Origin: Antedon mediterranea
Lineage: Eukaryota > Animalia > Echinodermata
DNA: 64,000 bases
Direction of reading: 5' to 3'
NCBI RefSeq assembly: GCF_964355755.1
Contig: NC_092676.1
Span: forward strand, 17,006,871-17,070,870
Shown piece by piece: positions 2,456 to 62,784 of the stretch. How positions within the stretch are numbered: position 1 is the first letter of the stretch; each line of letters starts with the position of its first letter. The notes under the pieces are model-generated. The model was not told where the DNA came from. It searched no databases and saw only the letters and a program-made list of their open reading frames with translations. The position numbers and the translations under genes are program-made.

Positions 2456-2586
2456 GAACAAATTCGTCTATTGGAAACATTGACAATACGTTTCCAAGGC
2501 ACAGTGACTACATCCACTCACTTTTACTGGAAAATGAGCCGGTCATCCAATATGGTTTAATAAATATTTCTTCCAGAACAGGGACA

Positions 2587-10904: not shown

Positions 10905-11650
10905 AACGAGAAAATGTGACTTTCACTAATGAATTATTTACGAAGGTAGCATATAATATATTGGATATCAATATTTCTCTATGGATTTTAAACAGCATAT
11001 AACAATCTCACTAACGTTCTGTAATTATAATTACAATAGTAAAGTAGCATATATCAACATTTAATTATCGCAATGTGGTTTAAACAGACTATCGTTTAAC
11101 AATATTATTACACGTTATTTATAACACAAGTTCACCATAACATCACTAGGCAAATCCTCTAAATAATCGGCTACTGCATTCAAAGTACAATACCACTTAC
11201 GTTATATCAATGTAAATTATTATTATAAATCAATAATTGCGTAAATACAATACATCAATCTACAGTGATCAATAAATCCAATACAGTATATAGAAATCTA
11301 TATAATTAACATAAAGAAAATACATCAATTAATGATAGTTCAATATGTATACATCTTATCTGTATCTCGGATTCACCGACAGTTGATCCAGGGCTTTCCA
11401 ATCACTGGTCACTCCAAAGAATATACTCGCTAATCACCATCATCTGCCGCTAAACGTCATTCTTGAATTGCGATCCTGTCCGTGACGCCAATTTGTCGTG
11501 GTACGTGAGACCATGCCCGGATTAATTTGGAAGTTTTCTTCCCGGGTATCAAGCGTGCGAGGATTGGCTCAAATGAATGCAATATCAAGACCAACAGAAA
11601 GACAACAAATTGTTGATTGCCGTTACCATACCATTTATTGTGTACAAATC

Positions 11651-12730: not shown

Positions 12731-13997
12731 AAATCAACGTCACTCAGAAAATAAAGAGAACGAAGAAAGGAAAACCCTGCAAATATACAAACAAGCGTTA
12801 CATAATTTCAATAACAGTCAGTTTATAACTTCACTTTACCACTGTATTACCACTGTACTTAAACAAACACACTGTGTACAAACTGGTTATCATTAAGAAC
12901 AATACAATCAATTAAACGTCATTACAAATGATTAATACCTGAATCAACTTGAATGATGTATTTACTAACTAAGAACGAAAGATCGTACAGCAATCAACCA
13001 TTTCTCTATAAATTGAAGTAAAGATTTGAGAACATTATTTGCTTTATTTAAGTTGTATGCATGCAATTTAGTATAATAAATTAACAGGCAATGATCCGTC
13101 TATCATGTAATACAATTCTTTTTACTACTTACAAATGGTAACTTCAACAACGGCTTAATAATATATATATACAACACGGTAACAAAAATCACATCTTCCT
13201 GTGTTTGCAACAAAAGCTTTTCTGACGCGCAGACAGAAAAACCAGGTAGTTAACCAAAACATCACCTATATGCAAATGCGCCAAACACAATGCTCGCAAA
13301 ACAACTAGCAGCAAGACACTTATATGCAAATACGCAGAACGCACACGAACAACAACTGATCCATGACAATATCACGCGTCTCGACCCAACGTTGAACGAT
13401 TCGTACAAATTAGGGATACCGCCAGACAAGTGCGTACCTAGCTAATGTTTAGTAGTAAGTTAGATCGCTCAGTCGCTGGCAATAATGAATGCATAAAGGT
13501 GCATATTAGCCCTCTGACGTACTCTCACGGTCAATGGAACGTCGTGGTTTTCTAGGCGCTGAAGCTATATGAAGTGAACGCGAACGTTTTTTACTGTATA
13601 TTATATTCCCCAACAAAAAGTACCCGTGTTCCCCGACGGGGGGGCTAGGCTCCCCGACGAGGGGGCTAGAGCCCCCGTAGCCCCCCCCCCCCCCCCCCCG
13701 CTGGCGCCACCACTGGCAGCAGACCGTATTAAGCCTCCTGCTTATGATTCAATAGAAAATGAATGGATCCATGTTGTGTTGGTGTTCACAAAAAATTATT
13801 ACTTTGACATTTATATTAATGGAACTTGGAAGTCGCAATTCCCCTGCAGAACGCAATGCTCCTGGTTGTTCAGACAATATTGTTCTTGGAAATTTGTTTG
13901 GACTCATAGATGAAGTAATTATTTTAAGCACAGCACTGTCATCTGAAGAAGTGTTCAATTGGAATGAATAATAGTTCAGAATACTAGTGTGTACGAG

Positions 13998-19400: not shown

Positions 19401-20247
19401 CAATTATTCCTTTTATTTTTCGGACGTATTCTTTATCGTTTAGGATACTATTGTTGATTTTCCATACTCCTGGACCTCTTTTTTCTTGATGTTGATCATT
19501 GGATATTTTTAGTGATATGGCCTGATGATCTGAGCATATCGAAGGTCTAATGTCTGTAGACAAAACATCACCATTTTTATTGAGGGAACTCGATATGCAC
19601 CAAAAATCGAGTCTTCTATATGTATCTGTCCTTCTCCATGTAAACTGTGTTTTATTTTTATTGTTATGTCTCCATATATCGATTAAGTTATGTTTAGTCA
19701 TACATTTTTTTAAAGCAGACGGTGAACTGTCATATAGATTTACACTATTTTTCTGATCCAATTTTCTATCTAAGATACAATTCATATCTCCTCCAATAAT
19801 TATAAATTCGTCATTGGTAATACTTAAGTTATCAATCTTTCTTTCTAATTTATTAAAAAAGAGATACCTTTCTTTGTAATTGTTGGGTGCATATATGTTA
19901 AAGAAGTAAAACATTTTATCATTATATTTTACTCTAAGGATGATCAGTCTACCCTCATCATCACTATATTTGCACTCAATATCGTTGGGATCAAACCCTG
20001 ATTTAAAAAATATTGAGACGCCTCTACTTTTCGTCGTTCCAAAACTATGATACGATGCGCCTTTCCACAACGTCTTATTATAGTTTACAACATTTTTATC
20101 AAGATGCGTTTCTTGTAGAAAAACAATGTCGAACTTTTGGTCATCTAACCAATTGAATATCTTCTTCCTTTTATACTTTTCTCTAATACCTCTAACATTT
20201 AGAGATATTAAATGTAGAGAATTATTTATATTTTTTTGTTTTTTCAT
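16437..20247 (-). CDS. Tx1 ORF2 (APE endonuclease, RT, C-terminal zinc finger) with a single frameshift near 17695
   Basis: EN: SLNVRG, FLQETH, GGDMN, RLDFW, SDH. RT: NWRPITLLNVDYK, LDYAKAFD, GVRQGCPLS, LADD. After the shift it continues NVLYTFLWGTRREKIKR...EGGLNMPD into ORF 16437-17600, which has CDNC...ESEQHMLFEC. Confidence 0.92.
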
Positions 20248-20465
20248 TCAATATATATGCATATATACAGAATACCTCCTTATATACCCATTGGATGACC
20301 AAACACATATAATACAAAAAATTAACAAACACGCATGTGTTTCTTTCGATATTTTTGTTAAACACCATCATTTTTTTGGGTTTTTTAAAATTATTTAATA
20401 AATTAAAAATGTTAAAGTTAAAACAATGTCAACCATATAGTATCAGTAGAACCAGACAAGCAATT

Positions 20466-21659
20466 TTAACTTACAGAGTCGGATTTCTTGTCCTTTTTTT
20501 CTGCGTTTTTTTCTCCACTTTCAGTGAGTTTCTTTCTTTTTCCTGCTGCAAAGTTCTCTCTTGCTGTGGTAGCTTGATCTTTAGTACCGGTACTTGCCGG
20601 CTCAGCGTTACTAGCAATTGCAAAATCAGTGATCGGCCTCAAACCCTTCTTGTTACTACTAATCTTGTCGGTGATTTTATTCAATTGTTCAACGTTGTTT
20701 GATTTTTTTTTCTTTTGTTTCTTTTTTTCGTTCTTGGTTACTTGATGCTCTTTCGTTTCCGTTGATTTGTTACCTTCATCTAATTCGATATAATCTGAGA
20801 TGTTTTTTGGTTTGTCTGGTTTGCTTAAAAGTTCTTCTAGGTCTGATTCATTCTGCTCCCTTGCTTCTTGAACATTTTCAATATCCGCTTCTTCATCTTG
20901 TTCTATGTCTTGTTTCTTTTCATTTATTTCTTGCGTATTACTTTCTTCATAATCAACATTGCCATTAATTTGATAAGAGTCTGTTGTATTAGCAACATTA
21001 TTACAATGCTTTGCCATGTGACCAGGTTTACGGCATATGTGGCAGATTGTATTTTCCATCTTTTTGGGGCACTCATATATTTTGTGCCCTACAAGACCAC
21101 ACTGAAAGCATGTTACTTCAATCTGTTGGTTGCTGTGGAAAAGCCTAGCATTGAAGCTGTTGATCTTAAGAAATCTCGGCAAGCTTCCTTTAAATCGTTC
21201 TACAAATACTGCTCGGTCCCCATTCAAGAAGCGGGATAATTTGCCATTTATTCTGAATTTTACTAGTTGTATCTCTCCAATGATCTTGCATCCGATTTTT
21301 TTTAACGAGTCGGTTATTTCTTCGTTTCTAACAGACAGTGGTATGTCTTTGACCAGTACTCTTACAGAATTTTCATCTCTATTTATGTATGGGTTCAAGT
21401 CGTAGACAGGTACTTGCTTTCCTTTAATGTTAAGGCCTGCAGTTATTACTTTAACTCTTTCATTATGGTCGTTTATATATATTCGCCATAGGTTTTTCAC
21501 TTTTTGTGCTCCGATAAGGTTATCACAGTTCATCACTTTTAATAAGGCAAAGTAGATATCTTCTTCTTTCAGATATTCATCTTCCTTTTTCCGAATGTCA
21601 TCATCTTTTACAAATACTGGTTTAACCCGTTGTATGTTAGGTTGAGTTGATGTCTCCAT
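20466..21659 (-). CDS. Tx1 ORF1 nucleic-acid-binding protein with two CCHC zinc knuckles
   Basis: CFQCGLVGHKIYEC and CHICRKPGHMAKHC; the VLVKDIPL and NGDRAVF blocks are typical of Tx1-type ORF1. Confidence 0.9.
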   Translation of the reverse strand: METSTQPNIQRVKPVFVKDDDIRKKEDEYLKEEDIYFALLKVMNCDNLIGAQKVKNLWRIYINDHNERVKVITAGLNIKGKQVPVYDLNPYINRDENSVRVLVKDIPLSVRNEEITDSLKKIGCKIIGEIQLVKFRINGKLSRFLNGDRAVFVERFKGSLPRFLKINSFNARLFHSNQQIEVTCFQCGLVGHKIYECPKKMENTICHICRKPGHMAKHCNNVANTTDSYQINGNVDYEESNTQEINEKKQDIEQDEEADIENVQEAREQNESDLEELLSKPDKPKNISDYIELDEGNKSTETKEHQVTKNEKKKQKKKKSNNVEQLNKITDKISSNKKGLRPITDFAIASNAEPASTGTKDQATTARENFAAGKRKKLTESGEKNAEKKDKKSDSVS

Positions 21660-23385
21660 AGCAACAGACGTTTTTCTTGAACAATGGATGCTTACTAGAG
21701 CGTGAAGCGTGCGTACAAAGGATAGCTAGGCCTTGTTGCTAGAGTGGTTGTCAAGATAAACAATAGCCTTACCCTTGTTTTCTTCGCTGTAGTATTGGCG
21801 GTACAATCAAAACGTAGTCGTGTTCGGGCCTGTACAAATTTACTGCTCAAATAACGTTAAAGAATATCCAAATGTAAAATTTCAAGCTGATATAAGATCT
21901 CCTTCAAATGAGTGATTAGATGTTAGATATACCGTATTTTGATTTCAATCTTACGTTTAGTATTTTTAGATTTTTGAACGTTGGTTTTCTTTAAGTACTT
22001 GTACTTTAAAACGCCACCATCGATCATTGTTCATGATTTATGTTCTCAAATAAAATTAAACATTTGAAGAGTTCTGGTATCTTTTCTTGTACTAAAGTTA
22101 ACATGTTCAATATTATAATAAGAGAATTTTTCTATTTTCGTTTTATGTCAAATATTCATTTGCGTAAATCGTATTTGTGATCAAAAAGTCAATATATGGC
22201 ACACATGGCGTATCATAAAGAATTACAATACACGCACAACTTAGCCAGTCTAACAACGAACTTTCACGATGGGAATATCATTCTATATAATATTATTACG
22301 CCATGAAACCACGCATAAAGCTCTATCTACACTATCAAACTAGTTTGACCAAAAAAAAGAGTGTTGTATGTCCAAATATGGTAGTGACATCATCACTTTT
22401 TTTGTCACATAAAACTTGATAGTGTAGACAGAACAAAATCATTTTTAAATTGTCTTTTTATACGGTATAAAAATGTTATATTGCCATGTATCAGTTTCCA
22501 ATTTTGATCCATTAAATTGTTATTTTGACTAAAATGTTCTTCACTGATAATTACTGTTATGGTTTTAAAATAAATCTTTCACATAACGAAGCACTTAAAT
22601 GTAGTCTTAATTGCAGGTTTAATCTCAACACATAGAAACCTATGAGATTGTAATTATATATACTCTATCATTCTCTATTATTTCATTTAGCTGAATAGAA
22701 AGAAAGAATGAATAGAAAAGGTAACAAAATGCAATGTTATTTCCGAGCATATAAACCGTACCACTAAGCAATGTCTGAAATATAACAAGTAACTTATTTT
22801 ACTTGGCTTGGCAGCATGATGGTCGTAAACTAAAAGTGTGAAAACAAAAGTTTAAAACTCCCTCATTATAGGCCACCATTCATTTTCTATGCTTAAATTC
22901 CAAAATAGGGCACAGCATTACACAACTATTATACAGAACTTTTCAACAAGCATGGTAATTAAGAATTATTAATTTACTTGTCAGCATGATGGACGTACCG
23001 TTTAATTAAAATTGATGTGATCTGTCATGGTGAAATTTGTTTTTAATGTTGTGGTCTCTTTGAACAAATGGATAGAAAAGAACATTAAACTTAGTTATTG
23101 AGAACTCTCTTATTGTACTACTATCAATGCTTATGACAAATACGAAAACAGGGCGAAGAAATACAACACCGATAAAGCACTTTAAAGCGAAGTAAGTTTA
23201 TCATACAATTAGAATGATTGATGGATGATTAATTGCATTTTTCAGTGTTATCTGTCATTGTAAATAATGTTATATTGAAGTCTATTGAACGAGTTACATT
23301 TTAATTTAGACCACTGACAATGTTATATTCATTACTTTTCTCTTCAACCCTTGTAAATGTTACGCATTGTGGGTATTATCATCTC

Positions 23386-23425: not shown

Positions 23426-23619
23426 AAAGATACAGTCCACACGAATTATTTGGTAACGTGAATATTTATTTCAGACTAATCGAATGATGAATCTGTATTG
23501 TTTTGTTCTTGATAGCAACATTTTCCACGTTTTACTAGTATAGTGTAGGTGTTTCTTTTACAACATTGCCTCAACTGATATTAATTATGTTAACGTATAT
23601 TTTTTTCTTATAGGTAAAT

Positions 23620-24384
23620 ATGAAGTTCCAATGTATATTGTTGGTTGTGTTAATGGTCAACTGTATTCATCTTGGCCACTGTAATTGTGGTATTAAAAAT
23701 ACAGAAGAGACTTCTCGGCAGTCAGGCGGAAAATTTGTCAAAAAGTGCGTCAATTATAATAATAAAAATAAAAAACCGAAGACGGTTTTTCGTTTCAATA
23801 AAAAACATCTAATGGTGCACTATGGATTTGAAAATAATTCAAATGATGCGTCCGGAAATAATATACATCTCCATGTCGCAGGTTCTACCTCCTACTCAAA
23901 AGGAGTTGTTGGAAATGCACTCCGATTTGATGGTTATAACTACGCTGTCACCTTCGCATTATCGAGTTTCCCTTGCGATTTTGGAATAGGTTTCACTATT
24001 AGTTTATGGTTTAAAGATGAAAGTTCAGTGCAAAGCAGACATAGTCGCATAGTTATTTTCAATACATATCTTGGCGATTTTCTGGGGATAGATGTCACGG
24101 ACAATAATTTTGTTATGAGCCAAGATATGCCTGGCTACGATTATGAAAGTATTATTGTTTCAATAGGAAATGAATGGATCCATGTTGTGTTGGTGTTCAA
24201 CAACAATTCTTATGAAGTTTATATTAATGGAACCTGGAGGTCGCAATTCCCTTGCAGAACGCAATGCTCCATTAGTTGTTCAGCCTATATTACGTTTGGA
24301 AACACGTTACATGGATTTATAGATGAAGTAATTATTTTAAACACAACATTGTCATCTGAAGAAGTGTCAAATTTGATAGAATAA
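23620..24384 (+). CDS. Secreted LamG/concanavalin-A-like jellyroll protein (Laminin_G_3-type), intact copy, single coding exon, 254 aa
   Basis: Hydrophobic signal peptide. Motifs HYGFENNSNDASGN, GVVGNALRFDG, FTISLWFK, EWIHVVLVF, VYING and GFIDEVII. A splice acceptor ttcttatag ends at 23613, just before the ATG. Confidence 0.85.
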   Translation: MKFQCILLVVLMVNCIHLGHCNCGIKNTEETSRQSGGKFVKKCVNYNNKNKKPKTVFRFNKKHLMVHYGFENNSNDASGNNIHLHVAGSTSYSKGVVGNALRFDGYNYAVTFALSSFPCDFGIGFTISLWFKDESSVQSRHSRIVIFNTYLGDFLGIDVTDNNFVMSQDMPGYDYESIIVSIGNEWIHVVLVFNNNSYEVYINGTWRSQFPCRTQCSISCSAYITFGNTLHGFIDEVIILNTTLSSEEVSNLIE

Positions 24385-28426: not shown

Positions 28427-31100
28427 CTAAATTCGATGTCTGTTTCCATGTTTCTGATCTTTTTCCATAGACCCGTGACATGATTGGTCTAGTGGAAAAA
28501 GATCAGCGCTATATTGTGATTTACATTTACAACAGTGTGGAAATGGTTTGCACTCGGGGTCACAACACATCTGGGCTGTGACATCGAAATCTGTAAGAAC
28601 ACTTTCACCAAACTCGATTTGACTAGAAACATTGAACAACTGTTCTGTCATAAGTTGCAGTGTCGACCAATAGTGATCTGTGTCATTGGACAATGCATGG
28701 CGTTCTTCTGGGTCAAGAAGGAGGTCGTATAAAATGTATGGTTGTGTATCACAACGCCATCCTCCGTTGCTGTTCGGACACACTTCTTCGCAACTAATAT
28801 TTTGAATTTTATATTGATTGTTACGGATACCTATTGCGCCTATTTCTGGATCTGGCCTTGTGGGATAATACAAAATCGTTCTTCTGCGGCTCTATGATAT
28901 TATAAAATACAATAAAAAAAAATTAAAAAATGATGTACAATGTTAACAAATGTAAACTGTAAAGAAAAGAAAATATGTTTAAGAAAGTTCTAAAAGTGTC
29001 AAATGTCACAAATAATTTCTCTACAGCATTCTCCCTTTTGTAAGAAACAGTAGATAAGCAAGACATTTGCACAGAACAAATTATAAACCTTCTCCGGTGA
29101 TATATAAATAGGCCTATATTTCACACTTGATATCTTGTTAGGGCAGAACATATCAATCTATAGTAGGCTACAATAATTGTTTTTCGTAAATCTATATGGA
29201 TTTGAGTGAATATAGGCATTTTAATAAAAACGATTTAATTAATATCCAATGTATGTACAATTCTAACCTTTGTGTGTGAAAAAATAACATTGGAAAAATC
29301 AATTCCATCGAGAACGACGTTAAAATCATCCTCCAAAGAACCGCTTAGTCTTCGAAGTGTTGGCCATATATCCAAATGACTAAGTAATTCTAATGATATG
29401 CCGCTTTTAATGTGGCCTGGCCAACTTAGTATAGTTGGTACACGATGTCCACCTTCGAATGTTGATTCTTTTCCACATCGCATTTGGCCGCTAAATCCAC
29501 CATTTTCCATCTGTTCTAAATCTGGACTAAAAGGGCATACAATGTCCGGTTATAATTTAAGAAACGTTAGTTAATTTCAACTGAGATAAAGAATAAATTA
29601 ACGACTAATATATAGCGTGTACATTGTACTTTACACGTATATATACCACATGCCTACTTACATAACATAATAATATACATTTATTCATCCCTACTATACA
29701 CGGTGTTGTGAACTTACCCATTATCTGAGGTAAATATTACGAGAGTATTCTCAAGCAAATCGTGTTTCATTAATTCATCAATAACTTGTCCTACTTGCCA
29801 ATCCAATTCTGCCAAAGAATCGATGTAATGACCACCAACATTTTTGTTTGCGAATCTTTGACCGGCAAACTGTGGAACTTGTGTATGCTGGAATGCATAG
29901 AATAGAAGGAATGGTGTACTTGAGCAAGAATACTCCTGAATCCAACTTGTAGCTGCTCTAGCATATCTTTCTGATAGTGTGGTCAAATCTACTGGTTGTT
30001 CAAGAATACTGTTTCCATACATTAGCTGACAAGGAGCATGTTTAACTATACATTCATCGTAGTCACACGGTTCGTCTGGATAGAAGCATATCTCACATGG
30101 ACAATCAGAGTGTGTGTGTGGTACACCAAAGTATTTATCAAAACCATGTTGCAACGGAAGAAATTCTCTGTCGTATCCAACACCAAGATGCCATTTTCCA
30201 ATGTAAGCTGATTTATAGTCTTGTTCGGCTAGCATTTCGGCAATGGTTATTTCTTCGTGTGGTAAACCTCCTGTTAACTCTTGATTAAAGACTGCAGTAT
30301 CTTTTCCCCAGACACCTGAACGAACTGGATAACGTCCAGTTAAAATTGCAGCTCTGTTATAAAAGTAACAGAATAAAAGGTCCAATATTTTGCAACAGTG
30401 GCTGTGTGAGCTTAGTACACTTAGTTGTCTCGAAAGGTGTACCAGGTTCTCTAAAATGCACATGAACACTTTGTGTACACTTACTACGGTGTATAGTCCG
30501 TGTACCACCAGGACCATGATAAGAGAGTGACCCTCAAACCCTTGCCATAAGACTATGGATTATGGTTCCACTGTCTTATCCGCTCATGATTTTCAAATTA
30601 TGCATCAGAGGGTTCAACCAAGGCTAACAACAGGACAAACATTTCTTCATGAATATTGTTTCCATCTAGCCTACACGCAAGGTGCATTGAAAGAGTTACA
30701 TTTTCTCTTTTTATGATATTATATTTTTAAAGATAAATTGCGTCCGAATTTAAATTGATTGATATTCAAAGGCACCATTATACAGACTTGCAACATAAAA
30801 TGCACCAGAAGTAAATGACACGCTAAAATTATTATTTTTGCAGGCCTAGTCACATAGGCTTTAAAACCTTTACCTTGATGGACTGCCGACAGACGAAGCA
30901 CTGTAGAACTGCGTGAACTTCAAACCATTTTTAGCAAGCTTATTGATGTTTGGTGTATCTGCCAACGGATTGCCGTAAACTGCAGGATCGGAAAAGCCCA
31001 TATCATCGGCTAGAAATATCACGAAGTTTGGTTTGTTACTATTTGCAGCCAGAGCAGGCATGATTGAAAACAGTTCCAATAATATTACGAATCTGTCCAT
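28427..31100 (-). CDS. Arylsulfatase A-like protein, 4 coding exons, 528 aa; catalytic Cys replaced by Gly
   Basis: Exons 31100-30874, 30353-29718, 29526-29268 and 28891-28427, all GT-AG and phase-consistent. Signal peptide. Motifs KPNFVIFLADDMG, (G)SPSRAAILTGRYP, GKWHLG, FTSDNGP, GKESTFEGGHRVP and LYDLLLDPEE; Cys-rich C-terminus as in ARSA. Confidence 0.92.
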
Positions 31101-51087: not shown

Positions 51088-54000
51088 ATGATGACTTCTT
51101 TAAAAGCAAGTTGTGTGTGGCTTTCTATGGCATTAATCATAGGTGCTATTGCTATTGTATCAACCCAACATCCTGTTCCCACAACTAAAATTACCAGTGT
51201 TGTCATCGTTGGGGCTACCGGTGACCTAGCTCAACGATATCTGTGGCAAGGATTTTTTAATTTATTTGTAGGTAAGTTTGCATGTTTGTTTTTATACTAA
51301 TTAAAAGTAAGTATACAAATACAATTAATATTTATACTATTAAGAAAGCATACAATAATAAATATTGTAATCAATGTGTATTATTTTATAGCACACCCCA
51401 GAGGCTACCCTCAACACCTTACTCTCTGTGGCAGTTTTCAAATGTTGTCTAAAACATTCCAAGTAAAATTTTACCCACAACCCCAGCATCCCCACCCCAT
51501 CCCTACCATCACTGCAGGGAGTTTAAATGTATGTTAAAACCTTCACAGTATTATTGCATATAGACCAATTTAAATACGGTATTGAATACCATACTAATGT
51601 TAAAATTCATTTTTTAAAGAAATGGAATCTGTTGATCATCATCTAAAACTGTATGGTGCCACAAGGGTTAATGCAGAGGAAGGTACAGTACTCCTGAAAA
51701 ACATTCTCAATGAGCGTGTTCAGTGTAACAAATTGACAGTCCCAATCCCGTCCAACTGCGAGGATTTGAGAGAAAAATTCCTTTCACGTGTGCAATACAA
51801 ACAGCTAAAGAAAGCGGAACAATACCAGGAACTCTGCAAGATGTTTGAAATGGAAGCAGACCAAGAACATGCTAAGGAAAATGGACGTTGGTTTTATCTG
51901 TCTGTACCTGCTTTTGCATATGCCAATATTGCTGAAAATGTGGGGAGCTGTAAGTATTTTCATGACATCATCATCATCATCATCTTTTATTGAGTCAGCA
52001 TTTTCCCTTCTTCCAAGGGTTACTGACTGTCACTCATTCCAGGCTGCTACACCATCTCTCTACTTTTTCCTGTTTTGCGCATCATGTTTCTTCAAACCAA
52101 CTATCCTGCTTTCTTTCTATCTTTCTACGTCACCTTTGGCTGACCTCTTTCTCTTCTACCTCCAACTTCTAAATGCACTTATAAATTGAATAAATGTCAA
52201 CAGTTACTGGCTCCGCAGCAGTCAATACAATATGTATTATTAAGATATGTATAGTAAAATTGTGGTTTTAATCAACATATCAATGACTTTCAGTTTGCAG
52301 ACCTACTGTGAGTAATACATGGCTGCGTGTTGTCCTTGAGAAGCCCTTTGGGCATGATCTGATGTCAGCCAAAAAGTTGTCTGACCAACTTATGGAACAT
52401 CTACATGATGAGGAAATGTATAGAATTGACCATTATCTTGGAAAAACAGGTACATATTTAAAATCCTATTGGTTTAGTCCAATGTTCCACAAACTTCCTA
52501 AGCACCACATGTTAGGTCCTAAGAACAAATGCATGTAGGAAAATTAAAAAAAATGTTTGAGGATTGCTGGGTTAGACAAATTTAAGCATAAGTATCATTA
52601 TAATTTGATAAGCTACAGTACTTGATATGAACAAACATTACTTATGAAATGAAATAAATTCTAGGATATATACTTGCTTGGCACCACAAAAGTTTGCAAT
52701 GTTTAATATTGTATAAGAAGCAACTTTTGTTCTATATTAATTTGAGTTTAAATGTAAATTGTATGTTTCTTGAACCAGGAGTATCTTCGATTTTGCTATT
52801 CCGACAGCTCAATCAAGATAAGTACGAACAAATTTGGAATAAGCATCATGTGGAAAGAGTTGAAATAGTTATGAAAGAAAAACTTGATGTCACAGGTAAG
52901 TACAACCAATACCCTACCTATAAAGCATTGTTCCAAAAGACATGTTCTAAATGTAAATCACCTACTGTACATTATCTTATGCTCTGTCTACACTATCAAA
53001 CTTTATGTGACAAAAACACATACTCTGCCCATACTGTTGGACATGATGACATCATATCACTACCTATTTGGGCACATCACACTTTTTTTGTCAAATTAGT
53101 TTGATAGTGTATACAGAGCGTTATACCTTATACTGTGTAACACCTACATTCACATTTCAGTAATTCGTATTATTTATTGTTGATACAGGTCGTTTTAGTT
53201 TTTATAATGAGTATGGAGTTATACGAGATGTCATGCAGAACCATCTGACAGAAATATTAGCACTTATTGCCATGGAAATACCAGCAGATATCAGTTCACC
53301 TGAACAGCACAGATTTGAGAAAATTAATCTTATGAACAAAATCCAGCCAATCAGAAAACAGCATGCAGTGATTGGTCAGTATAAAGCCTACCAGGAAGAG
53401 CTACGGGATGAACTAGGTAAGGCAGACAACTTCACAAGTCTTGTTCCAACATTTGCAGGTGTCACGTTATTTATAAATTCTCCTAGATGGTTTGGTGTTC
53501 CCTTTGTGTTGGTCTCTGGTAAAAAGATGGACTCAAAATCTGGTTACGCAAGAATAGTATTTAAACAAAACAATTTCTGTGTAAATGATGGCGGGATAGA
53601 GGGTGATTGTGGCACTAAACAAATTGTTATATACACTGGTGGTACAGGAGAAACCAAACCAATGCTTTTGGTAAGTAAAAATCTTCTTCGACCAAATGTT
53701 TTTGCAGACTGGACAACAAAATATTCATTCGAAGACCAGAATTTATTTGGTTCTGATTTCAAAGACTTCAATCATTATTCTCCACCTGTTGAAGCAGATG
53801 CCTACTCAGCTCTTTTACGATCTTGCTTCCTTGGAGAAAAGCAAAATTTCATTGCTTCTGATGACCTAATGCAGTCTTGGAAAATATGGTCACCACTTCT
53901 AAAAGATCTCGAAGGTACCATTCCACGAGAATACCCAGGAGGAATCAATAATGGAGAAATCTTAGATTTTGTTTCTTTAACTTCTGGCACTCAGTTTGTA

Positions 54001-54780
54001 ACACAGCAGAATGAACCACTGTTTGAAAACAGATATCAACACAATATTGCATTTAAAACTTCAACATTTAGAAATGAGTTTTTAGTATCTGGTGAAGCCA
54101 AACAAGTAATAGAAGCGCTTGCTGTGGATATATATAATTCTTCAATCTTCAGTATTAAGTCGCGAGGATATTTCCACCTGGCACTTTCTGGTGGGAAGAG
54201 TCCAGTTCCATTGTTTCATGAACTTTCCCAATTGGACAGCTTCCCTTGGAGAGACACTCATATTTGGTTGGTTGATGAAAGGTGTGTAGATTTTGATGAC
54301 GACAACTCAAATTTTAAATCACTGACTAAGAATTTGATAGACTACATTAGCATCCCGTATAGGAATGTGCATCCGATGCCAATAACTGGTGTATGGGAGA
54401 ATTGTGACAAGGAACAAAGTATCTACTATGACAATGACATCAGAAAGAGGACAAATGGCATATTTGATTACATTGTTTTAGGCTTGGGAAAAGATGGACA
54501 CACCGCTTCACTCTTCCCCCACAGCACAGCGCTTGAAGAAGACCGCCAGTTTGTCAGTGTCACCGTAAATCCATCAGATGGTTCTAGCCGACTTTCTCTT
54601 ACATACCCATGTTTGAATGCTGCCAGAACAGTATCCGTTTTAGTTACAGGTGCAGATAAAGTAGACATTGTCAATAGAATAAAAGGTGGTATTGTTGATA
54701 AAATGAACTTGCCTGTAACAGGTGTGTCACCTGATTCAGGAGTCAGGTGGTATATAGATGATGGAGCTCTAACCGGTTAA
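51088..54780 (+). CDS. H6PD: Hexose-6-phosphate dehydrogenase / 6-phosphogluconolactonase (ER bifunctional GDH/6PGL), 5 coding exons, 792 aa
   Basis: Exons 51088-51271, 51620-51949, 52294-52449, 52779-52895 and 53189-54780. Signal peptide. Motifs [28 protein letters not shown] and RDVMQNHL; C-terminal 6PGL domain with [15 protein letters not shown] and [11 protein letters not shown]. Confidence 0.96.
51966..52168 (-). mobile_element. RTE-type LINE 3' end fragment in an H6PD intron
   Basis: The reverse strand encodes a decayed [13 protein letters not shown]...DAQNR, then AATAAA and a (GAT)n tail. Confidence 0.65.
52980..53120. mobile_element. Harbinger/PIF-like MITE family 1 (representative copy)
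   Basis: TIR gctctgtctacactatcaaact...agtttgatagtgta(g/t)acagagc with TTA TSD (52977-52979 and 53121-53123). Other copies at ~22319-22432, 41360-41518, 45968-46101, 48261-48335, 48452-48533 and 62546-62668. Confidence 0.85.
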
Positions 54781-55042: not shown

Positions 55043-56641
55043 ACTGGGGGGCTACGGCCCTGCTTCAGGAACAAAGTGTCCCCTTAATAGAGGTTGGACA
55101 TAGCGTTAACATATATATTTTCCCTGATCATTTCATGGGAAAGTGTCTGATTCTATTGTTTTGAATTAAGTAGACAGACCATTTCTTTCTGCAACAACCT
55201 GTCTATTCAATATTATTGACCTTGAACAAATTAACAGAAACGCTTGAAATACATTCATAACATTTATTTGTATCAAATAGTTTAGTAAAGAAAGCAGTAT
55301 GCAATTTGATTTGTTTAAAATTAAGAAAATGTAAAAGAAAAGAAAATATACTATGCAAGTTCTGTAAAAATGTATAGTAATCTAGTGCTAAAAACGTTGC
55401 TAGGAACAAAAGCAAAATATCTATAATATATTTTAGATTTTTTTTAAATGCAGACAAATTTGAAGAAAAAGCATTAAATCCAATAAAAAGGTCTGTAACG
55501 GTAGTCGTGTCGAGGGCCAAGACAATAACGATGGCACACAATTATTCAATGTACAAAATATAATATTTATTCAATCAAAAAGTAATATTATAAAACAATG
55601 TGAAACGTAGTGATTCTGACTGATGTTATAGTCTCAAGAATCAATACCCGAACTAACTAACTTAACTACAAAACATATATTTATATTAAGGGGACAGGAA
55701 GGATGACTAATTAAATGGTACCACATCCTGATTGACTTTCCTTGGAAGACCCACCTCAGGAATGTAGTGTTCCAAGTTAAGTAGGCATCGGGGAGAGTAA
55801 GGGGTGAATAGCCTGTGTGACTAATAGGGTTTGGTCCCACCATGTTACATTCCCCCGCTCGTCAATTCGAAGCCGTGTCTTCGAAACCAACGAGTCACTG
55901 AGCCAAAAATGTATTGAGAAACAAACTTAACTACGAACATCGTAAATCTAAACAAAAGAAAAAGTAACGCAAATCGTCACAAATCAATAAATCGGCAAAC
56001 GTGGCAAAACATACAAAAGTAAAAGTAAAATTGGTAAAAGTTCTCAAATTAAAAGTCATAATAACAATATAAAGCGTTCATAATAATATATAGCTCAGCA
56101 AACATGTTCAGTTGAAAATGAAAGTCAGCAGGACATAAATGTAGGAACTCCTGTATTTACTCCTGATGGATCCATCAATCAGCTGTTGCCTAGAAACAAG
56201 TTGACCTGCTTCCCAAAATTCAGTTCATAACAAAAAAATTTGAGAACGACATAACTGCAGTTGACTGTCCACTATATCTTGAAGAAAATCTTTAAAAAGT
56301 GTACATTTCTGGATTCAAGTTTCTCATCAATCCGAGGAATAAAGTGAAATAGTTTATCAATAAGTAATTCTCATGTAAGTGTTAAAAGTTTCTTGTGATC
56401 CATTATAATTAACTTCATTCAGGGAACATAGTTGTGAAAAGCTTCTTGTACCCAATGGGCAGGAGGGGAGAACCAATAAAACACAATTCAACATACACAT
56501 CATCATGACAGTGGCAGTAAACTTAATACTACATTTAACTAAATCCAATCTGATAAGCAAATAACAAGATGAAATTGATTTTACAAAATTATTGAAAAAG
56601 ACACTGTACATAAGGTGTAAAAATAAAGTATCCTAACATAA

Positions 56642-59600
56642 TTAGATTCGAGACAAAGCATCAGCATTAGTATTATGTGATCCTTTCTTATATTGAACAG
56701 TAAAACTATAAGGCTGTAAAGTCAAACTCCATCTAGTAAGACGAGGATTTGTAGTTTTCATTTGATCCAGCCATTTAATAGCTTTGTGATCTGTTTGTAC
56801 TATAAAGGGCCGACCATATAAATAAACATGAAATTGTCGTATGGCCCACAAAATAGCTAAGCATTCTTTTTCCATAATCCCATAGTTTTCTTCACACGGA
56901 GTTAATTTCTTACTTAAATAGGCAACAGGGTGTTCATGTTCATTATCGTCACATTGGGTCAAGACTGCGCCGATAGCTTGATTGCTAGCGTCACATTGTA
57001 GGATAAATTGTTTATCAAAATTTGGGCTTACTAATACAGGGGAATCGGTCAATTTTGTTTGTAAGGTTCTAAAGGAAGTTTCCATTTGCTCCGACCAGTT
57101 AACATTATTAGGGGATGATTTCCGAGTGGCCTCAGTCAGGGGGAGCGCAATTTGGGAAAAGTCAGGGATGAATTTCCGATAATAATTAGCAAGGCCTAAG
57201 AATGCCCGGATATTGGTTTTGGTTATGGGGCGGGGATAGTTCTGTAAAGCAGATAATTTATCCGGACTGGGTCTTACTAGGCCGTTTCCAATTACATGAC
57301 CCAAATATGACACAGTTTCCTGGGCTATCTCACACTTAGTAGGTTTTACTGTGAGGCCTGCTGCGTTTATCCTATCTAGTACTTCAGTTATGTGGAGTAA
57401 GTGGGAATTCCAGTCGGTACTAAATATCGCAATGTCATCTAAATAAGCACGGGCAAAACATTCAGTGCCCCTTAGAATGTTATCCATTAGTCTCTGAAAG
57501 GTACCTGGGCTATTAGCCATGCCAAATGGCATAACTTTGTATTGGTATTGGCCCCATGGTGTAATAAATGCAGACTTAAGTTTAGCTTCATCAGTCAGAG
57601 CTATTTGGTAATACCCTTGTGTTAGATCAAGTTTAGTAATGAATTTGGCATTACCGACCTTATCAATGATATCATCTATACGGGGCATAGGGTATGGGTC
57701 AATAATGGTGATTTTGTTTAATTCCCTGTAATCGGTACAAATACGTAGTGATCCATCCGGTTTTGGAACAGAAACAATGGGGGCAGCCCATGGGCTTGTC
57801 GATGGTTCAATAATACCATTATCATGCATGTGTTGTATTTGTAATTTGACTTGGTCTTCTAATGCATAAGGGATTCTATAGGCTTTTTGTCTTATTGGGG
57901 TATCTGTTGTCGTACGGACTTCATGTTTTACCATATCTGTTCTACCTGGGATATCTGTAAACATAAATCGTTTTGAGGAGAAGATATGGTGAAGGTCATC
58001 TTTCTGGGAAGGGGTAAGATAGCCCGGGATATCAATGTCTTTATAGGATTGGGCCTGGGAAGTGGCGGGGCCTGGTGGCTCAGGGGGAAACCAATCGTCT
58101 GGATCGGGGTCAGGGGCAGTGTACATACAATCATTGTTTTGTTTCTGTGGACGTTCGTTGTATAATCGTAGTAAATTAATGTGGTATGTTTTGTGTTTGT
58201 TACCAACTAGTATTTCATAATTAACATCACTGAAAACTTTAGAGATAGGATAGGGACCTTGCCATTTAGATTTAACTTTCGATGTGTCATCTGGGAGGAG
58301 AATTAATACTTTCTGTCCCACCTTAAATTTTCGAGGCAATGTTTTCTTATCATAATAATGTTTCTGTTTCGCTTGGGCTTGTTTAAGGTTGGTTCTAGCA
58401 ATGTCATTAACAACCCTTAATTTGTCTTGTAAGTCACTTATGTAATGAGAAATAGGTTGTTTGTTGTCTATCGTGTTTGTCATGCTGTCCTTTAAAAGTC
58501 GAAGTGGTGTTTTAACTTCGTGGGCAAATACAAGTTCAAAGGGTGTGAATCCTGTTGATTCATGTTGGGCATCGCGGTATGCGAATAGAAATAAAGGAAC
58601 ATATCTATCCCATTCATCAAATTGTTCTGGGGCGAGAGACTTTATCATATTTTTCATTGTCCCATTAAACTTCTCGACAAGACCATTTGTTTGCTGGTGA
58701 AAAGGGGTAGACGTCATCTGTTCAATTTGTAATAAGTCTGATAATTGTTTCATCAGTCGTGAAGTGAAGTTTGTGCCCTGATCGGATAGGATTTGTGATG
58801 GGAATCCAAAATCTTTGAACACCAATATCAATGCATCGGCCACAGTTTTGGCTTCAATATTACTAAGGGGCACAGCAAAAGGGAATCGAGTGGCATAGTC
58901 GCAAATTGTCAGTATATAGGCTTTTCTGTTTTTCGAACGTTTAAGTGGGCCTAGAATGTCAATTCCTACTTTGGAGAATGGTTGACCGACAATTTCTATG
59001 GGTTTCATGGGGGCCTTACTATACGTATTAGCATGGGCTGTTTTCTGACATATGTCGCATGTTCTACAGTACGTAGCAACATCCGAAAAAATACCTGGCC
59101 AATAAAAGGATTGTAGGATACGTTGTGTTGTTTTGTTTACACCGAGGTGGCCGGATGTTGGGTTGTCATGGGCTAAGGAAAGTATAGTCGGGCGATAAAT
59201 TGTGGGCAATACGATTTGTTCTAGGCCAGGGAGATTAACACTGGTCTTAATAGATTTCCATTTTCTAAATAATATATCATCTTTCAAATAAAAGCATACA
59301 CGATGAGAATTAATTTGGTCAAAAGAGACAGTTCTATCATGTATTATGGTGCTAATGGTTTTATCTTCTTTTTGTTGATGTGCAAGTTGGTGTGGTGTTG
59401 TTTTGATGTCCAAAGGTGAATGATCGGTAATGTGGGCAGTGGTAGTGTTGTCATTTTTCTTTACAATTCGGGACGATCTTGGGGAAGGTTTAAGTGGTAG
59501 GGCATCAGGGATTGGGGACGTTTTAACATTAAGGGCAGCAGCTAAATTAATAGCCTCTTGTCTTTCTTGGTCATGGGCTTGTTTTCTGGTAATAGCTAGT

Positions 59601-59938
59601 ATAGAAGGGGGCCATGTGACGTCGTTTGGGTTACCGGTCATAACTTCGTTGCCAAGTAATAAGTCTTTAGGGGTGTCATTACTCACGGCTGCCTTTAATT
59701 TTCCTCTATAGGCCTTACAATCAATATGTACGTGTACAACTGGGAGGGTTATGCATTGACCAGTAAAGCCTTGTACGGTGACAGTTTCACTGGTATAATC
59801 CTTGGGTTTAACAAAAGTACTTTTTACAATGCTTTGGGAGCACCCAGTGTCTCTAAGTATTTCAGCCTGTATGTTGTTAATTGTACCAGACAGTAACCAT
59901 GGGCTGGTCCCACAATTGTGTTTAATATACAGGCCTAG
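56642..59938 (-). CDS. Pol polyprotein in PR-INT-RT-RNaseH order, in frame with gag and lacking its own initiator before the protease
   Basis: The frame is open from the codon after the gag stop: protease LRDTGCSQS and LLLGNE; integrase HHCC (AHD...GHLG...CDIC) with core motifs GIDILGP, SDQGTNF and NGLVEKFN; RT YLDD; RNase H CDAS and TDH. Confidence 0.93.
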   Translation of the reverse strand, partial: LGLYIKHNCGTSPWLLSGTINNIQAEILRDTGCSQSIVKSTFVKPKDYTSETVTVQGFTGQCITLPVVHVHIDCKAYRGKLKAAVSNDTPKDLLLGNEVMTGNPNDVTWPPSILAITRKQAHDQERQEAINLAAALNVKTSPIPDALPLKPSPRSSRIVKKNDNTTTAHITDHSPLDIKTTPHQLAHQQKEDKTISTIIHDRTVSFDQINSHRVCFYLKDDILFRKWKSIKTSVNLPGLEQIVLPTIYRPTILSLAHDNPTSGHLGVNKTTQRILQSFYWPGIFSDVATYCRTCDICQKTAHANTYSKAPMKPIEIVGQPFSKVGIDILGPLKRSKNRKAYILTICDYATRFPFAVPLSNIEAKTVADALILVFKDFGFPSQILSDQGTNFTSRLMKQLSDLLQIEQMTSTPFHQQTNGLVEKFNGTMKNMIKSLAPEQFDEWDRYVPLFLFAYRDAQHESTGFTPFELVFAHEVKTPLRLLKDSMTNTIDNKQPISHYISDLQDKLRVVNDIARTNLKQAQAKQKHYYDKKTLPRKFKVGQKVLILLPDDTSKVKSKWQGPYPISKVFSDVNYEILVGNKHKTYHINLLRLYNERPQKQNNDCMYTAPDPDPDDWFPPEPPGPATSQAQSYKDIDIPGYLTPSQKDDLHHIFSSKRFMFTDIPGRTDMVKHEVRTTTDTPIRQKAYRIPYALEDQVKLQIQHMHDNGIIEPSTSPWAAPIVSVPKPDGSLRICTDYRELNKITIIDPYPMPRIDDIIDKVGNAKFITKLDLTQGYYQIALTDEAKLKSAFITPWGQYQYKVMPFGMANSPGTFQRLMDNILRGTECFARAYLDDIAIFSTDWNSHLLHITEVLDRINAAGLTVKPTKCEIAQETVSYLGHVIGNGLVRPSPDKLSALQNYPRPITKTNIRAFLGLANYYRKFIPDFSQIALPLTEATRKSSPNNVNWSEQMETSFRTLQTKLTDSPVLVSPNFDKQFILQCDASNQAIGAVLTQCDDNEHEHPVAYLSKKLTPCEENYGIMEKECLAILWAIRQFHVYLYGRPFIVQTDHKAIKWLDQMKTTNPRLTRWSLTLQPYSFTVQYKKGSHNTNADALSRI

Positions 59939-60940
59939 TCATTGATCTTTTGCAGGGTTGTTGTTAAGTGGGCATTGTCGACTAATGTGGCCTGGTTTAT
60001 TACATTTATAGCATGTAATGTTTTGTGTTGTGTATTGGCGAGTTGTGTAGGTACCGCTAGGGGCTGAATAATTATCAAAAGGGATCGAGAGCAAAGGTTT
60101 TGGGGAATAACTCGATGTAGGTTGGGGAGGGCCTTGGGATGCGGGACTGTAACTAGAAAACGACGGGGCTGTTGATGGAGGGGCGGATATTCTCGGGGAA
60201 GGTCTGGTGTTGGGTTTAGAAATAGATTCCATCCAGGGTTTACCTTTAATTTCAATCAAGGTATCGGCAATTCGAGAAAATTCATTGGACGTTTTGGGCT
60301 CTCTTTCTTTGATTAGGGAAGCAAGTGGGAAGGGGAGTTTTTGGATTGCCTGATCTAAAACAAAAAAGTCAAGAATTTCCTTGGGGTCTTGTAGGTTAAC
60401 TTTTGCACTTCGGAGCCACCTCGTCATGTCTCGATCAAGTTTTCCAACCCACTCTCTAGTGGACATTGAAAGGGGTTTGGGGGTTTGTCTAAATTGTTTC
60501 CGATATGTTTCGGCTGTGAGGTGGTACTTCAAGAGGATAGCATCTTTAAGGTCATTATATGTGAAGTTCTGTAAAGGCATATCGTTGTAGGCCTCCCTGG
60601 CTTTACCAGTTAATTTTGGGAGAAGGTGTAGGGTACAATTTTCGGGGGCAATTTGGCACTGTGCTGCAATACGCTCAAAGCATGACAAGTAGATGTCAAT
60701 GTCATCCTTATCTGTGATTTTAGGGATCTTATTAATGGGGCTATGAGTATCCTGGGGCGGTTGTTGACGCATTCGAAGACGTTGGAGTTCAAGTTCTAAC
60801 TCAAGCATGCGCATTTGCATAGCTGTTTCGGATTGAGATGGTGGGGGAGGGCTAGGTGGACTCTCAAAGTTAGGAGCCAACCCAGGGGTACTAATAGGGG
60901 TTGTACGGGTTTGGGACCGAGTAAGTCGCGGAGTTGCCAT
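59939..60940 (-). CDS. Gag with SCAN-like capsid domain and CCHC zinc knuckle
   Basis: IDIYLSCFERIA...LTGKAREAY, LTAETYRKQFR...VLDQAIQKLP...EREPKT (SCAN-like), and CYKCNKPGHISRQC. Confidence 0.92.
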   Translation of the reverse strand: MATPRLTRSQTRTTPISTPGLAPNFESPPSPPPPSQSETAMQMRMLELELELQRLRMRQQPPQDTHSPINKIPKITDKDDIDIYLSCFERIAAQCQIAPENCTLHLLPKLTGKAREAYNDMPLQNFTYNDLKDAILLKYHLTAETYRKQFRQTPKPLSMSTREWVGKLDRDMTRWLRSAKVNLQDPKEILDFFVLDQAIQKLPFPLASLIKEREPKTSNEFSRIADTLIEIKGKPWMESISKPNTRPSPRISAPPSTAPSFSSYSPASQGPPQPTSSYSPKPLLSIPFDNYSAPSGTYTTRQYTTQNITCYKCNKPGHISRQCPLNNNPAKDQ

Positions 60941-61100
60941 TTTAAGTGAGAATGTACGATAAGTTTGGAATCAATTAGGCTAATAACAGAATGTACCTTA
61001 ACTACAATATAAGTAATATTGAGAATTATTATACAATTATCAACAAGAATTATTAAAGTATAAAATAAATGCCACTGTCAGTATGAAAGTATATGCTAAT

Positions 61101-61306
61101 TAGAGTGTAGATTGGTTACTCACCCTTTACTTGTGTTGCTCTTTGTACGTCTCTGTTCCTTTGTGTTTCTTGTGTTTGTTGTTTCCAAGAGTGTAGAATG
61201 GTTACTACTCACTCTTTACTTGTGTTGCTCTCTGTGTTCCTTTGTGTTCCTTGTTGTTGTGTCCAAGAGTGTAGATTGGTTACTACTCACTCTTTACTTG
61301 TGTTGA
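61101..61306. repeat. Two and a half ~80-bp tandem repeats in the retrotransposon 5' UTR
   Basis: agagtgtaga(t/a)tggttact...ctttacttgtgttg at ~61102, 61187 and 61266. Confidence 0.8.
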
Positions 61307-62784
61307 AAACAAAATCCGTTTCGGAAATAAAAATCAGCTTCTTTTCAAATTCTACAGCTTGGTCGACTGTATAAATTTACTTTTTCTTCGTGAGTTCGTA
61401 AAAACCGCTGCCACCATGTAACGGTAGTCGTGTCGAGGGCCAAGACAATAACGATGGCACACAATTATTCAATGTACAAAATATAATATTTATTCAATCA
61501 AAAAGTAATATTATAAAACAATGTGAAACGTAGTGATTCTGACTGATGTTATAGTCTCAAGAATCAATACCCGAACTAACTAACTTAACTACAAAACATA
61601 TATTTATATTAAGGGGACAGGAAGGATGACTAATTAAATGGTACCACATCCTGATTGACTTTCCTTGGAAGACCCACCTCAGGAATGTAGTGTTCCAAGT
61701 TAAGTAGGCATCGGGGAGAGTAAGGGGTGAATAGCCTGTGTGACTAATAGGGTTTGGTCCCACCATGTTACAAGGTCTAACAATGAGATCGAATCTTAAA
61801 ATGTAATTAATGCAATTAATTGAGAAGATATAAATAAATATTTGTGAGAATAAGAGATAACTAATAATGAACTATTGTTCTTGTAGAACTTTCTCTATAA
61901 TTCAATATTGAATATTTTTCATCAATGATGGCAAAAAAAAAAAGAGTCCTGAGTTGTTGTATTTAAAAGGGGAAAATCAAAATAATAAAATGATCAGCTA
62001 CCAGTTCTATTTGAATAGAAAAAACCATCCTTGCATAAGATAAGCATTGAATACATAGTTTAGTTGATGGCAAGACTGTCCTAAGACAATAGAAAATATA
62101 GAGACATAGTAAAATTTACCGTCAATGAATCAATCATTTTCAGATCCAAAATTAAACATTACCCTTATTATTTTCCATTAAAAAGAAAGCAACGGATATT
62201 TTAATATATTGCTTGCCTACTGAATAGTTCAATGCTCATAACCGGGTATGAGCTCCGAGATCAAAGCGTTTATCTGTTGCTGTGACACTATCAGTTCCAC
62301 GCCCCTTAACAGACACCGCACACCGTGGAGAATATGTACATAGTACAGTACTGTTGGTATTTGTCGCTGCCAAACATAAGATCAAAGGACTGTAACGAGT
62401 TGTTTTATTGCCTTAGTTAGAGCTATTTTACAGTAATATTTAAAAAGTTGTGCAGTGGGTGGTGCACTGAAGTAAATGTAATATTGTATGTGGCATAACA
62501 CTCTATAGGTCTCAACTAGGAAAGATTAGTGGAAGTCACCTCTCAAGCTCTGTTTATACTATTAAACTAGTGTGATAAGCCGAAATATAGTAGTGATATG
62601 ACACTATGTCCATATATGGGCACATCATATTTTTTTTTCACATAAAATTTGATAGTGTAGACAGAGTTTTACAACATGTTGGTTAAAAATTCATTCACAA
62701 ATCTGAATATACCCCTAAAGAGATATTGTAAGCAGCCCCTAGTGCACATGTTGAGCACCTAACTAATTAATACACAAAGTTGTT

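What the first reader, a model, noticed from the sequence alone, without database searches (positions are those of the whole stretch)
59864..59944. Candidate programmed UGA readthrough (CAA-UGA-CUAG plus 3' stem-loop) joining gag and pol in a Gmr1-like retrotransposon
Seen: on the minus strand gag ends ...AAA GAT CAA TGA CTA GGC CTG.... Pol continues in the same frame with no further stop through PR-INT-RT-RH, and has no ATG before the protease active site. The stop sits at the nucleocapsid/protease boundary. A ~72-nt stem-loop starts 4 nt after it: GGCCUGUAU (59935-59927) pairs with AUACAGGCU (59872-59864), AAUUGUG pairs with UACAAUU, and there is an apical GACCA/UGGUU hairpin. Established: UGA-CUA(G) is the classic leaky context (alphavirus opal readthrough and several cellular genes) and is often enhanced by a 3' stem-loop. 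Ty3/Gypsy elements usually use a fused ORF or a frameshift, and gammaretroviruses use UAG plus a pseudoknot. Inference: this element, with identical LTRs and no other lesions, sets its Gag:Gag-Pol ratio by alphavirus-style readthrough. I do not recognise this as described for Gmr1-like elements.
Basis: partly seen in the sequence, partly recalled or inferred. Interest (0 to 1): 0.88.

Follow-up and report, generated by a model that had tools for sequence, protein, structure and literature searches.

The report
Leaky stop in animal Gmr1 retrotransposon
A young, intact jumping gene in a feather-star-like animal has its coat gene and enzyme gene in one reading frame split by a single UGA stop in a leaky context, and a distant relative has the same stop in the same place, so the enzymes are likely made by occasional read-through, a trick known from yeast jumping genes but unusual for this normally fused family.

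Summary
Observation confirmed. A 6.3-kb Gmr1-like LTR element (identical 356-bp LTRs, 5-bp target duplication) has gag (333 codons), one TGA-CTAG, then pol (1098 codons, PR-INT-RT-RH) in one frame. The stop is not private: 9 of 12 listed contigs spanning it, from two organisms, keep it. Three contigs (one organism) carry a sense codon; two of these have indels. A Gmr1-like locus about 30% identical (L061) has TGA-CTAG at the same place, in a clade whose five nearest pol proteins lack gag; a tree test rejects one clade with the window element. Most relatives are fused (66 of 77 scorable loci). The stem-loop is the weak part: most stable 72-mer of 1407 in gag-pol, but z about -1.8, no compensatory change, three pairs broken in a stop-bearing sister copy, spacer only 3 nt. 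Readthrough itself is untested. The layout is known from fission-yeast Ty3/Gypsy Tj1/Tosmo (AA-TGA-CT) and Candida Tca2, and this scan noted it before in Copia, Ngaro and other elements on other DNA; I found no report for Gmr1-like elements. Verdict: likely programmed readthrough (0.68), new member of a known kind.

The parts
61417..61772 (-). 5' LTR, 356 bp, TG...CA
   Evidence: identical to the 3' LTR
61404..61416 (-). primer-binding site directly after the 5' LTR (tRNA-Leu type, recalled, not tested)
   Evidence: sequence
59942..60940 (-). gag, 333 codons: SCAN-like capsid domain (60511-60251) and CCHC zinc knuckle (60019-59969)
59939..59941 (-). in-frame TGA, 10 codons after the last Cys of the knuckle and 30 codons before the protease Asp; preceded by CAA
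59935..59938 (-). CTAG 3' context (known leaky context)
   Evidence: sequence; no variant listed at these four bases; same four bases in L061
59864..59935 (-). predicted 72-nt stem-loop, role unproven
   Evidence: variants mapped by hand
56642..59938 (-). pol, 1098 codons, same frame as gag: protease (D at 59851), integrase (59206-58700), RT (57769-57290), RNase H (57022-56708)
55850..55860 (-). polypurine tract before the 3' LTR
   Evidence: sequence
55494..55849 (-). 3' LTR, 356 bp
61773..61777 (-). 5-bp target-site duplication GACCT (second copy 55493-55489)

Best explanation
The TGA is the inherited end of gag in a young Gmr1-like retrotransposon, and Pol is likely made as a Gag-Pol fusion when a small fraction of ribosomes reads through the UGA in its leaky AA-UGA-CUAG context. 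Most ribosomes would stop and release Gag (capsid plus nucleocapsid); the few that continue would give Gag-PR-INT-RT-RH, fixing a high Gag to Gag-Pol ratio. The short context is inferred to be the core signal; the 3' stem is at most an unproven helper. Shown: anatomy, inheritance of the stop across copies and two organisms, recurrence in a distant Gmr1-like lineage. Inferred: readthrough, its level, its benefit, and independent origin from fused ancestors.
For: (1) One stop in 1432 codons, at the nucleocapsid/protease border, in an element with identical LTRs. None of the 572 other single-base routes to a stop in the window's gag-pol, and 3 of 517 in L061, would give TGA-CTAG, so a random nonsense change rarely lands in this context. 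(2) 9 of 12 listed contigs across the codon keep TGA: 4 of 4 in organism B (runs X6, X8; main contig 19 differences in 495 nt) and 5 of 8 in organism A. (3) L061, 29% identical to the window's Gag-Pol by tblastn, has 336 open codons, knuckle, 9 codons, TGA-CTAG-G, then 823 open codons of PR-INT-RT to the contig end. (4) The five best of 66 hits to L061 pol (41-73% identical) begin 0-29 residues before the protease motif and lack gag, on contigs of 4.9-7.3 kb; they form a clade with L061 (SH-aLRT 99). Gag relatives of L061 at 93% and 88% end at the same residue, those at 41, 39 and 34% end 20, 19 and 13 residues after the knuckle. (5) Another copy, P0003 (7 differences in 999 aa), is annotated from the same downstream Met with pol intact. 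(6) Precedent: AA-TGA-CT is conserved in Tj1/Tosmo/Tcry (PMC10085805, passages) and the Tj1 stop is needed for transposition (PMC4600332, passages).
Against: Three of 8 listed organism-A contigs have a sense codon, about 40-50% of depth at the site in runs X1 and X2, so a fused form exists in the same genomes and could supply Pol. Fused Gag-Pol is the family norm (66 of 77 scorable loci; 109 of 120 proteins), including the nearest named relatives P0004, P0006, P0007. CTAG is also present in the sense-codon copies, so the context alone is no proof of selection. Purifying selection on pol of stop-bearing copies is only weakly seen (8 of 18 listed pol differences synonymous). L061 has an in-frame ATG 7 codons after its stop, so that clade could restart instead. 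L066 has an in-frame TAG where its sister L094 is open: chance stops do occur near this border. In Tca2 the junction alone did not direct readthrough in a reporter (PMC2194720, abstract). No RNA, ribosome or peptide data.
Confidence: 0.68

Rival explanations
1. The TGA is an inherited nonsense change in a non-autonomous sub-lineage that makes Gag only and is copied with Pol from fused sibling elements; the leaky context and the stem are accidental.
For: Sense-codon copies exist at similar depth in organism A; in run X2 both types join one 369-nt contig downstream of 59903 (depth 204.5 = 121.1 + 88.1), which suggests exchange between them. Fused ORFs are the norm (PMC11117352 passage).
Against: Pol is open over 1098 codons here and 999 in P0003; the stop is shared with a second organism; 2 of the 3 sense-codon contigs carry a frameshift or a 460-nt deletion in gag; the same stop and context recur in L061.
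Confidence: 0.2
2. The stop is programmed, but Pol is made separately: ribosomes restart just after the stop (non-AUG codon here, AUG in the L061 clade) or on a shorter or spliced RNA.
For: A CTG lies 3 codons after the stop; TAG|G resembles a splice acceptor; L061 has an in-frame ATG before the protease; Tca2 has a minor junction promoter (PMC2194720 abstract).
Against: No ATG before the protease active site in the window element; the sequence before TAG|G is purine-rich with no pyrimidine tract in both the window and L061; the only joint seen (59962 to 60423, run X1) lacks GT-AG ends on the sense strand and has 11 inserted letters.
Confidence: 0.09
3. The UGA is recoded by another route: selenocysteine insertion or A-to-I editing of the RNA.
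For: In naked RNA the stop is predicted to pair with upstream sequence (59994-59980, pair probabilities 0.5-0.8).
Against: No SECIS or other Rfam match at threshold in 55400-61900 (one chance-level hit, E 0.24); the A of the UGA has a 5' G, a neighbour that editing enzymes disfavour (recalled).
Confidence: 0.03

Closest known systems
Fission-yeast Ty3/Gypsy elements Tj1, Tosmo1-3, Tcry1 (Tf1/sushi branch; PMC10085805, PMC4600332)
   Same: gag and pol in one frame, one TGA, AA before and CT(A/G) after it (seven bases AATGACT shared with the window), no AUG at the start of pol; a single-ORF ancestor is proposed there too
   Different: animal host; Gmr1 clade with INT before RT and SCAN-type capsid; tRNA-type primer site; stop polymorphic within the family; no transposition test here
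Gmr1-like Ty3/Gypsy retrotransposons (PMC3587641, PMC4131045, PMC11117352)
   Same: integrase upstream of RT, SCAN domain in gag, CCHC knuckle, gypsy-type RT
   Different: described members have gag and pol fused in a single ORF; this one and the L061 clade have them split
Tca2 of Candida albicans (Ty1/Copia, gag-UGA-pol; PMC2194720)
   Same: single in-frame UGA with a proposed 3' structure
   Different: Copia superfamily; its junction did not direct readthrough in a yeast reporter
Alphavirus UGA readthrough with 3' stem-loop (PMC3159437)
   Same: UGA-C context and a predicted long 3' stem
   Different: alphavirus stems lie 8-9 nt after the stop and are conserved and tested; here the spacer is 3 nt and the stem lacks covariation
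Gammaretrovirus gag-UAG-pol readthrough (recalled; cited in PMC4600332)
   Same: stop at the NC/PR border sets the Gag to Gag-Pol ratio
   Different: UAG plus pseudoknot; no pseudoknot tested or seen here

Membership tests
Gmr1-like Ty3/Gypsy | integrase upstream of RT within pol | tested here: met
   Pfam order PR, INT, RT, RH; definition in PMC3587641 passage
Gmr1-like Ty3/Gypsy | SCAN domain in gag | tested here: met
   PF02023 E 7e-10; association with Gmr in PMC4131045 passage
Gmr1-like Ty3/Gypsy | RT/INT phylogeny with reference Gmr1 elements | tested here: inconclusive
   groups with INT-before-RT elements apart from canonical-order gypsy L106/L109, but no named reference Gmr1 sequence was in the tree
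Gmr1-like Ty3/Gypsy | gag and pol fused in one ORF (usual state, not the definition) | tested here: not met
   one in-frame TGA; fused in a minority of sibling contigs
In-frame-stop (readthrough) gag-pol retroelements | single in-frame stop between gag and pol, no AUG before protease | tested here: met
In-frame-stop (readthrough) gag-pol retroelements | stop conserved across the family | tested here: inconclusive
   9 of 12 listed contigs keep it, 3 do not; recurs in L061
In-frame-stop (readthrough) gag-pol retroelements | leaky context (UGA-CUAG) | tested here: met
   sequence; context named in PMC10085805 passage
In-frame-stop (readthrough) gag-pol retroelements | measured readthrough or Gag-Pol fusion protein | not testable with these tools
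   no reporter, ribosome or peptide data
Alphavirus-type readthrough with 3' stem | conserved 3' stem with covariation | tested here: not met
   11 variant positions: 0 compensatory, 6 one-sided, 3 breaking, 2 in the loop (mapped by hand)
Alphavirus-type readthrough with 3' stem | spacer of about 6-9 nt between stop and stem | tested here: not met
   3 nt here against 8-9, 7, 9 and 6 nt in the cases quoted in PMC3159437

The most novel reading that the evidence does not exclude
Gmr1-like elements, the fused-ORF ancestors of the SCAN domain, have evolved a UGA-CUAG readthrough gate at the NC/PR border at least twice independently, and the family in this genome is caught with both gated and fused forms side by side and exchanging sequence: a snapshot of a recoding signal being gained or lost by one base.
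Probability: 0.3. Interest if true: 0.7.

Novelty: new member of a known kind. Interest (0 to 1): 0.48.

Why it matters
It would extend Gag-Pol readthrough, so far tested in gammaretroviruses and a fission-yeast gypsy element, to an animal gypsy clade described as single-ORF, with at least two separate origins at the same place and context. That makes 'how does a fused retroelement acquire control of its Gag to Pol ratio' testable within one family that holds both states. In practice, such elements are mis-annotated as broken or as headless pol genes (P0003 starts after the protease active site), so activity surveys that demand a single ORF miss them.

Tried and rejected
No whole genome is held for the window, so copies could not be counted or aligned at full length; sibling evidence comes from short Logan contigs (difference tables: 40 of 100 rows shown; 18 of 20 pieces shown). 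No RNA holder listed; X1 is only guessed to be RNA. Run X9 does not cover the stop. The gag search by words found 1 protein only. Viral contigs gave nothing. Rfam gave nothing at threshold. A first sliding scan with step 25 missed the stem because no window began at it; repeated with step 3. The L061 stem is as weak as the window's (z -2.1, 7 of 200; 241 of 1122 windows as stable) and unrelated in sequence; L106 and L109 have none (z +0.6, -0.4). A single origin for the window element and the L061 clade was rejected (p-AU 3e-05, 38 of 190 rows, group named after earlier trees were seen). Not held: the 2003 survey of gag-pol recoding signals (Gao et al.) and the J Virol paper on the origin of the SCAN domain; the original Gmr1 descriptions were not seen either; any of these could mention a stop-containing Gmr1-like element. 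Nine literature searches showed no such report in listings; no supplements were read. Polarity (stop gained or lost) could not be fixed from the short contigs.

Full report
Observation. On the minus strand an LTR element runs from 61772 to 55494. Its LTRs are identical over 356 bp and flanked by a GACCT duplication; a primer-binding site follows the 5' LTR and a purine tract precedes the 3' LTR. Gag begins at ATG 60940 and ends CAA-TGA at 59941-59939; the same frame continues CTA GGC CTG for 1098 codons to TAA 56642. Pfam finds SCAN and a CCHC knuckle in gag, and protease (weak), integrase, RT, RNase H in that order in pol, the order that defines Gmr1-like gypsy elements (PMC3587641, passages; SCAN in Gmr elements: PMC4131045, passages). 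The stop is 10 codons after the knuckle and 30 before the protease Asp; the first ATG of the pol frame lies after the active site. The best protein hit is 99% identical and named as from Antedon mediterranea, so the host is most likely that crinoid or a close relative. No genome was available.

Is the stop private? No. Contigs of six public runs were laid on the junction. Of the 12 listed contigs that span the codon (2 further pieces not shown), 9 keep TGA: 4 of 4 in organism B (runs X6, X8, one study), whose main contig differs from the window at 19 of 495 bases, and 5 of 8 in organism A (runs X1, X2). Three organism-A contigs, 7-8 differences in about 120-135 bases, have a one-base difference that makes it a sense codon; by depth they are 28 of 57 in X1 and 88 of 209 in X2. 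Two of the three carry lesions in gag (a 1-base insertion in the knuckle region; a 460-base deletion). Whether the stop was gained or lost cannot be fixed from these short pieces; its presence in both organisms and in the deleted copy of organism B leans weakly towards an ancestral stop in this family, the fused state of the nearest other families (P0004, P0006, P0007) towards a gain earlier on. A second copy, P0003, differs at 7 of 999 residues, has an intact pol and is annotated from the same downstream Met. Of 36 listed differences tested (36 of 40 rows shown, 60 not shown), 17 are synonymous, 8 of 18 in pol: above the quarter or so expected without selection (recalled), but weak.

Wider family. 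Fusion is the norm: 109 of the 120 best-listed proteins align through gag into pol (such databases cannot show stop-joined forms), and of 125 fetched loci 66 are open from knuckle to protease, 8 have them in different frames, 3 have one in-frame stop, 14 lack a recognisable knuckle and 34 a protease hit. This agrees with a statement that all Gmr elements of tetraodontiform fish have a single ORF (PMC11117352, passages). One of the three is decisive for weight: L061, a Gmr1-like element 29% identical by tblastn, reads knuckle, 9 codons, CAT-TGA-CTA-GGA, with 336 open codons before and 823 after, to the contig end. The five best of 66 hits to its pol (73, 62, 44, 42, 41%) start 0-29 residues before the protease motif and have no gag although their contigs are 4.9-7.3 kb; they form one clade with L061 (SH-aLRT 99). 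Its closest gag relatives end 9, 9, 20, 19 and 13 residues after the knuckle (12 of 108 knuckle-bearing hits end within 22 residues). For these proteins no DNA was seen, so stop and frameshift cannot be told apart. The window element sits in another clade among fused relatives, and holding it with the L061 clade is rejected (p-AU 3e-05; 38 of 190 rows; group chosen after earlier trees). Two origins are thus the simplest reading. A random nonsense change seldom gives this context: 0 of 572 other single-base routes to a stop in the window's gag-pol and 3 of 517 in L061 yield TGA-CTAG. Against this, L066 has an in-frame TAG where its sister L094 is open, and L061 has an ATG 7 codons after its stop. 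The other two in-frame stops (L106, L109) belong to a canonical-order gypsy group, where two more loci have TAG-GGG.

The stem. The 72-mer 59935-59864 is the most stable of 1407 windows in gag-pol, but only z -1.7 to -1.9 against shuffles. Mapping the 11 variant positions by hand onto the MFE: 2 in the loop, 6 keep a pair by a one-sided change (4 of them A-to-G or C-to-U changes that always do), 3 break a pair, none is compensatory. Position 59871 differs in every contig that covers it, so the top pair of the basal helix is private to this copy, and the main stop-bearing contig of organism B has all three breaks. The spacer is 3 nt, against 8-9, 7, 9 and 6 nt in the cases quoted by PMC3159437 (passages); the first pairs would lie inside the ribosome when UGA is decoded (inference). 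L061 has an equally marginal, unrelated stem; L106 and L109 none. The stem is not established.

Mechanism. Most likely (0.68) ribosomes stop at the UGA and release Gag, and a small fraction inserts an amino acid and makes Gag-Pol, the AA-UGA-CUAG context being the core signal. Rivals: an inherited nonsense change in a lineage helped by fused siblings (0.2); separate initiation or splicing for pol (0.09); selenocysteine or editing (0.03; Rfam blank). Anatomy, inheritance and recurrence are shown; readthrough is inferred.

Comparison with what is known. The closest case is within Ty3/Gypsy: Tj1, Tosmo1-3 and Tcry1 of fission yeasts have GAA-TGA-CT(A/G) between gag and pol (PMC10085805, passages), and Tj1 without the stop does not transpose (PMC4600332, passages). 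Tca2 is the Copia case, where the junction alone failed in a reporter (PMC2194720, abstract). PMC8310308 (passages) added nothing on retrotransposons. Nine searches (listings only unless cited) showed no report for Gmr1-like elements, but the 2003 survey of gag-pol signals, the SCAN-origin paper and the original Gmr1 papers were not seen. This scan noted gag-UGA-pol junctions before in Copia, Ngaro and dinoflagellate elements on other DNA, none Gmr1-like and none like this sequence; these notes are unchecked and not counted as support.

Verdict. Real feature; likely programmed readthrough; new member of a known kind, in a clade described as fused, with a second independent case found here. Interest 0.48. 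The boldest reading left open, repeated birth of the gate with both states coexisting in one family, has probability 0.3 and would merit 0.7.

Noticed in passing
L106 (=L126) 1391, L109 (=L127) 70, L128, L129: A canonical-order gypsy group (PR-RT-RH-INT), found as evident host DNA in a bacterial MAG (G001), also has in-frame stops 9-12 codons after the knuckle with open pol: TGA-C in two loci, and TAG-GGG-T(A/G)C-GCG-CCT, nearly identical over 12 bases, in two others. 4 of the 19 loci printed; most others have gag in another frame.
   Followed up: partly
G001 and other MAGs: Several bacterial or archaeal species genomes hold many eukaryotic LTR retrotransposon contigs (108 matches in G001): host contamination.
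   Followed up: no
window 59904-60007 against 59535-59903: In run X2 sense-codon and stop-bearing copies differ at 8 sites plus an insertion in the first stretch but join one contig in the second: likely recombination close to the junction.
   Followed up: partly
window 59962-60423 and about 59968-60580: Internally deleted copies of gag in organism A (460 nt) and organism B.
   Followed up: partly
window 61300-61110: Three imperfect copies of a 60-70 nt unit in the 5' leader of the element.
   Followed up: no
window 56641-55861: About 780 nt without a long ORF between pol and the polypurine tract.
   Followed up: no
window 53164-54780 (+): Large last exon of a hexose-6-phosphate dehydrogenase-type gene (G6PD_C plus 6-phosphogluconolactonase); the element lies about 700 bp downstream on the other strand.
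   Followed up: partly
window 16437-21725 (-): Non-LTR retrotransposon with endonuclease and RT, ORF2 split in two frames, knuckle-bearing ORF1 upstream.
   Followed up: no
window 6300-13570: A second, decayed LTR-type element: identical 300-bp repeats at 6856 and 12731, gag-protease frame 10922-9471 (-).
   Followed up: no
window 28427-30559 (-); 23614-24384 (+) with repeats at 4831 and 13791; 2-1777 (+); 2508-3033: Sulfatase exons, a duplicated LamG-domain ORF, an RT-like ORF at the window start, and a short-unit tandem repeat.
   Followed up: no
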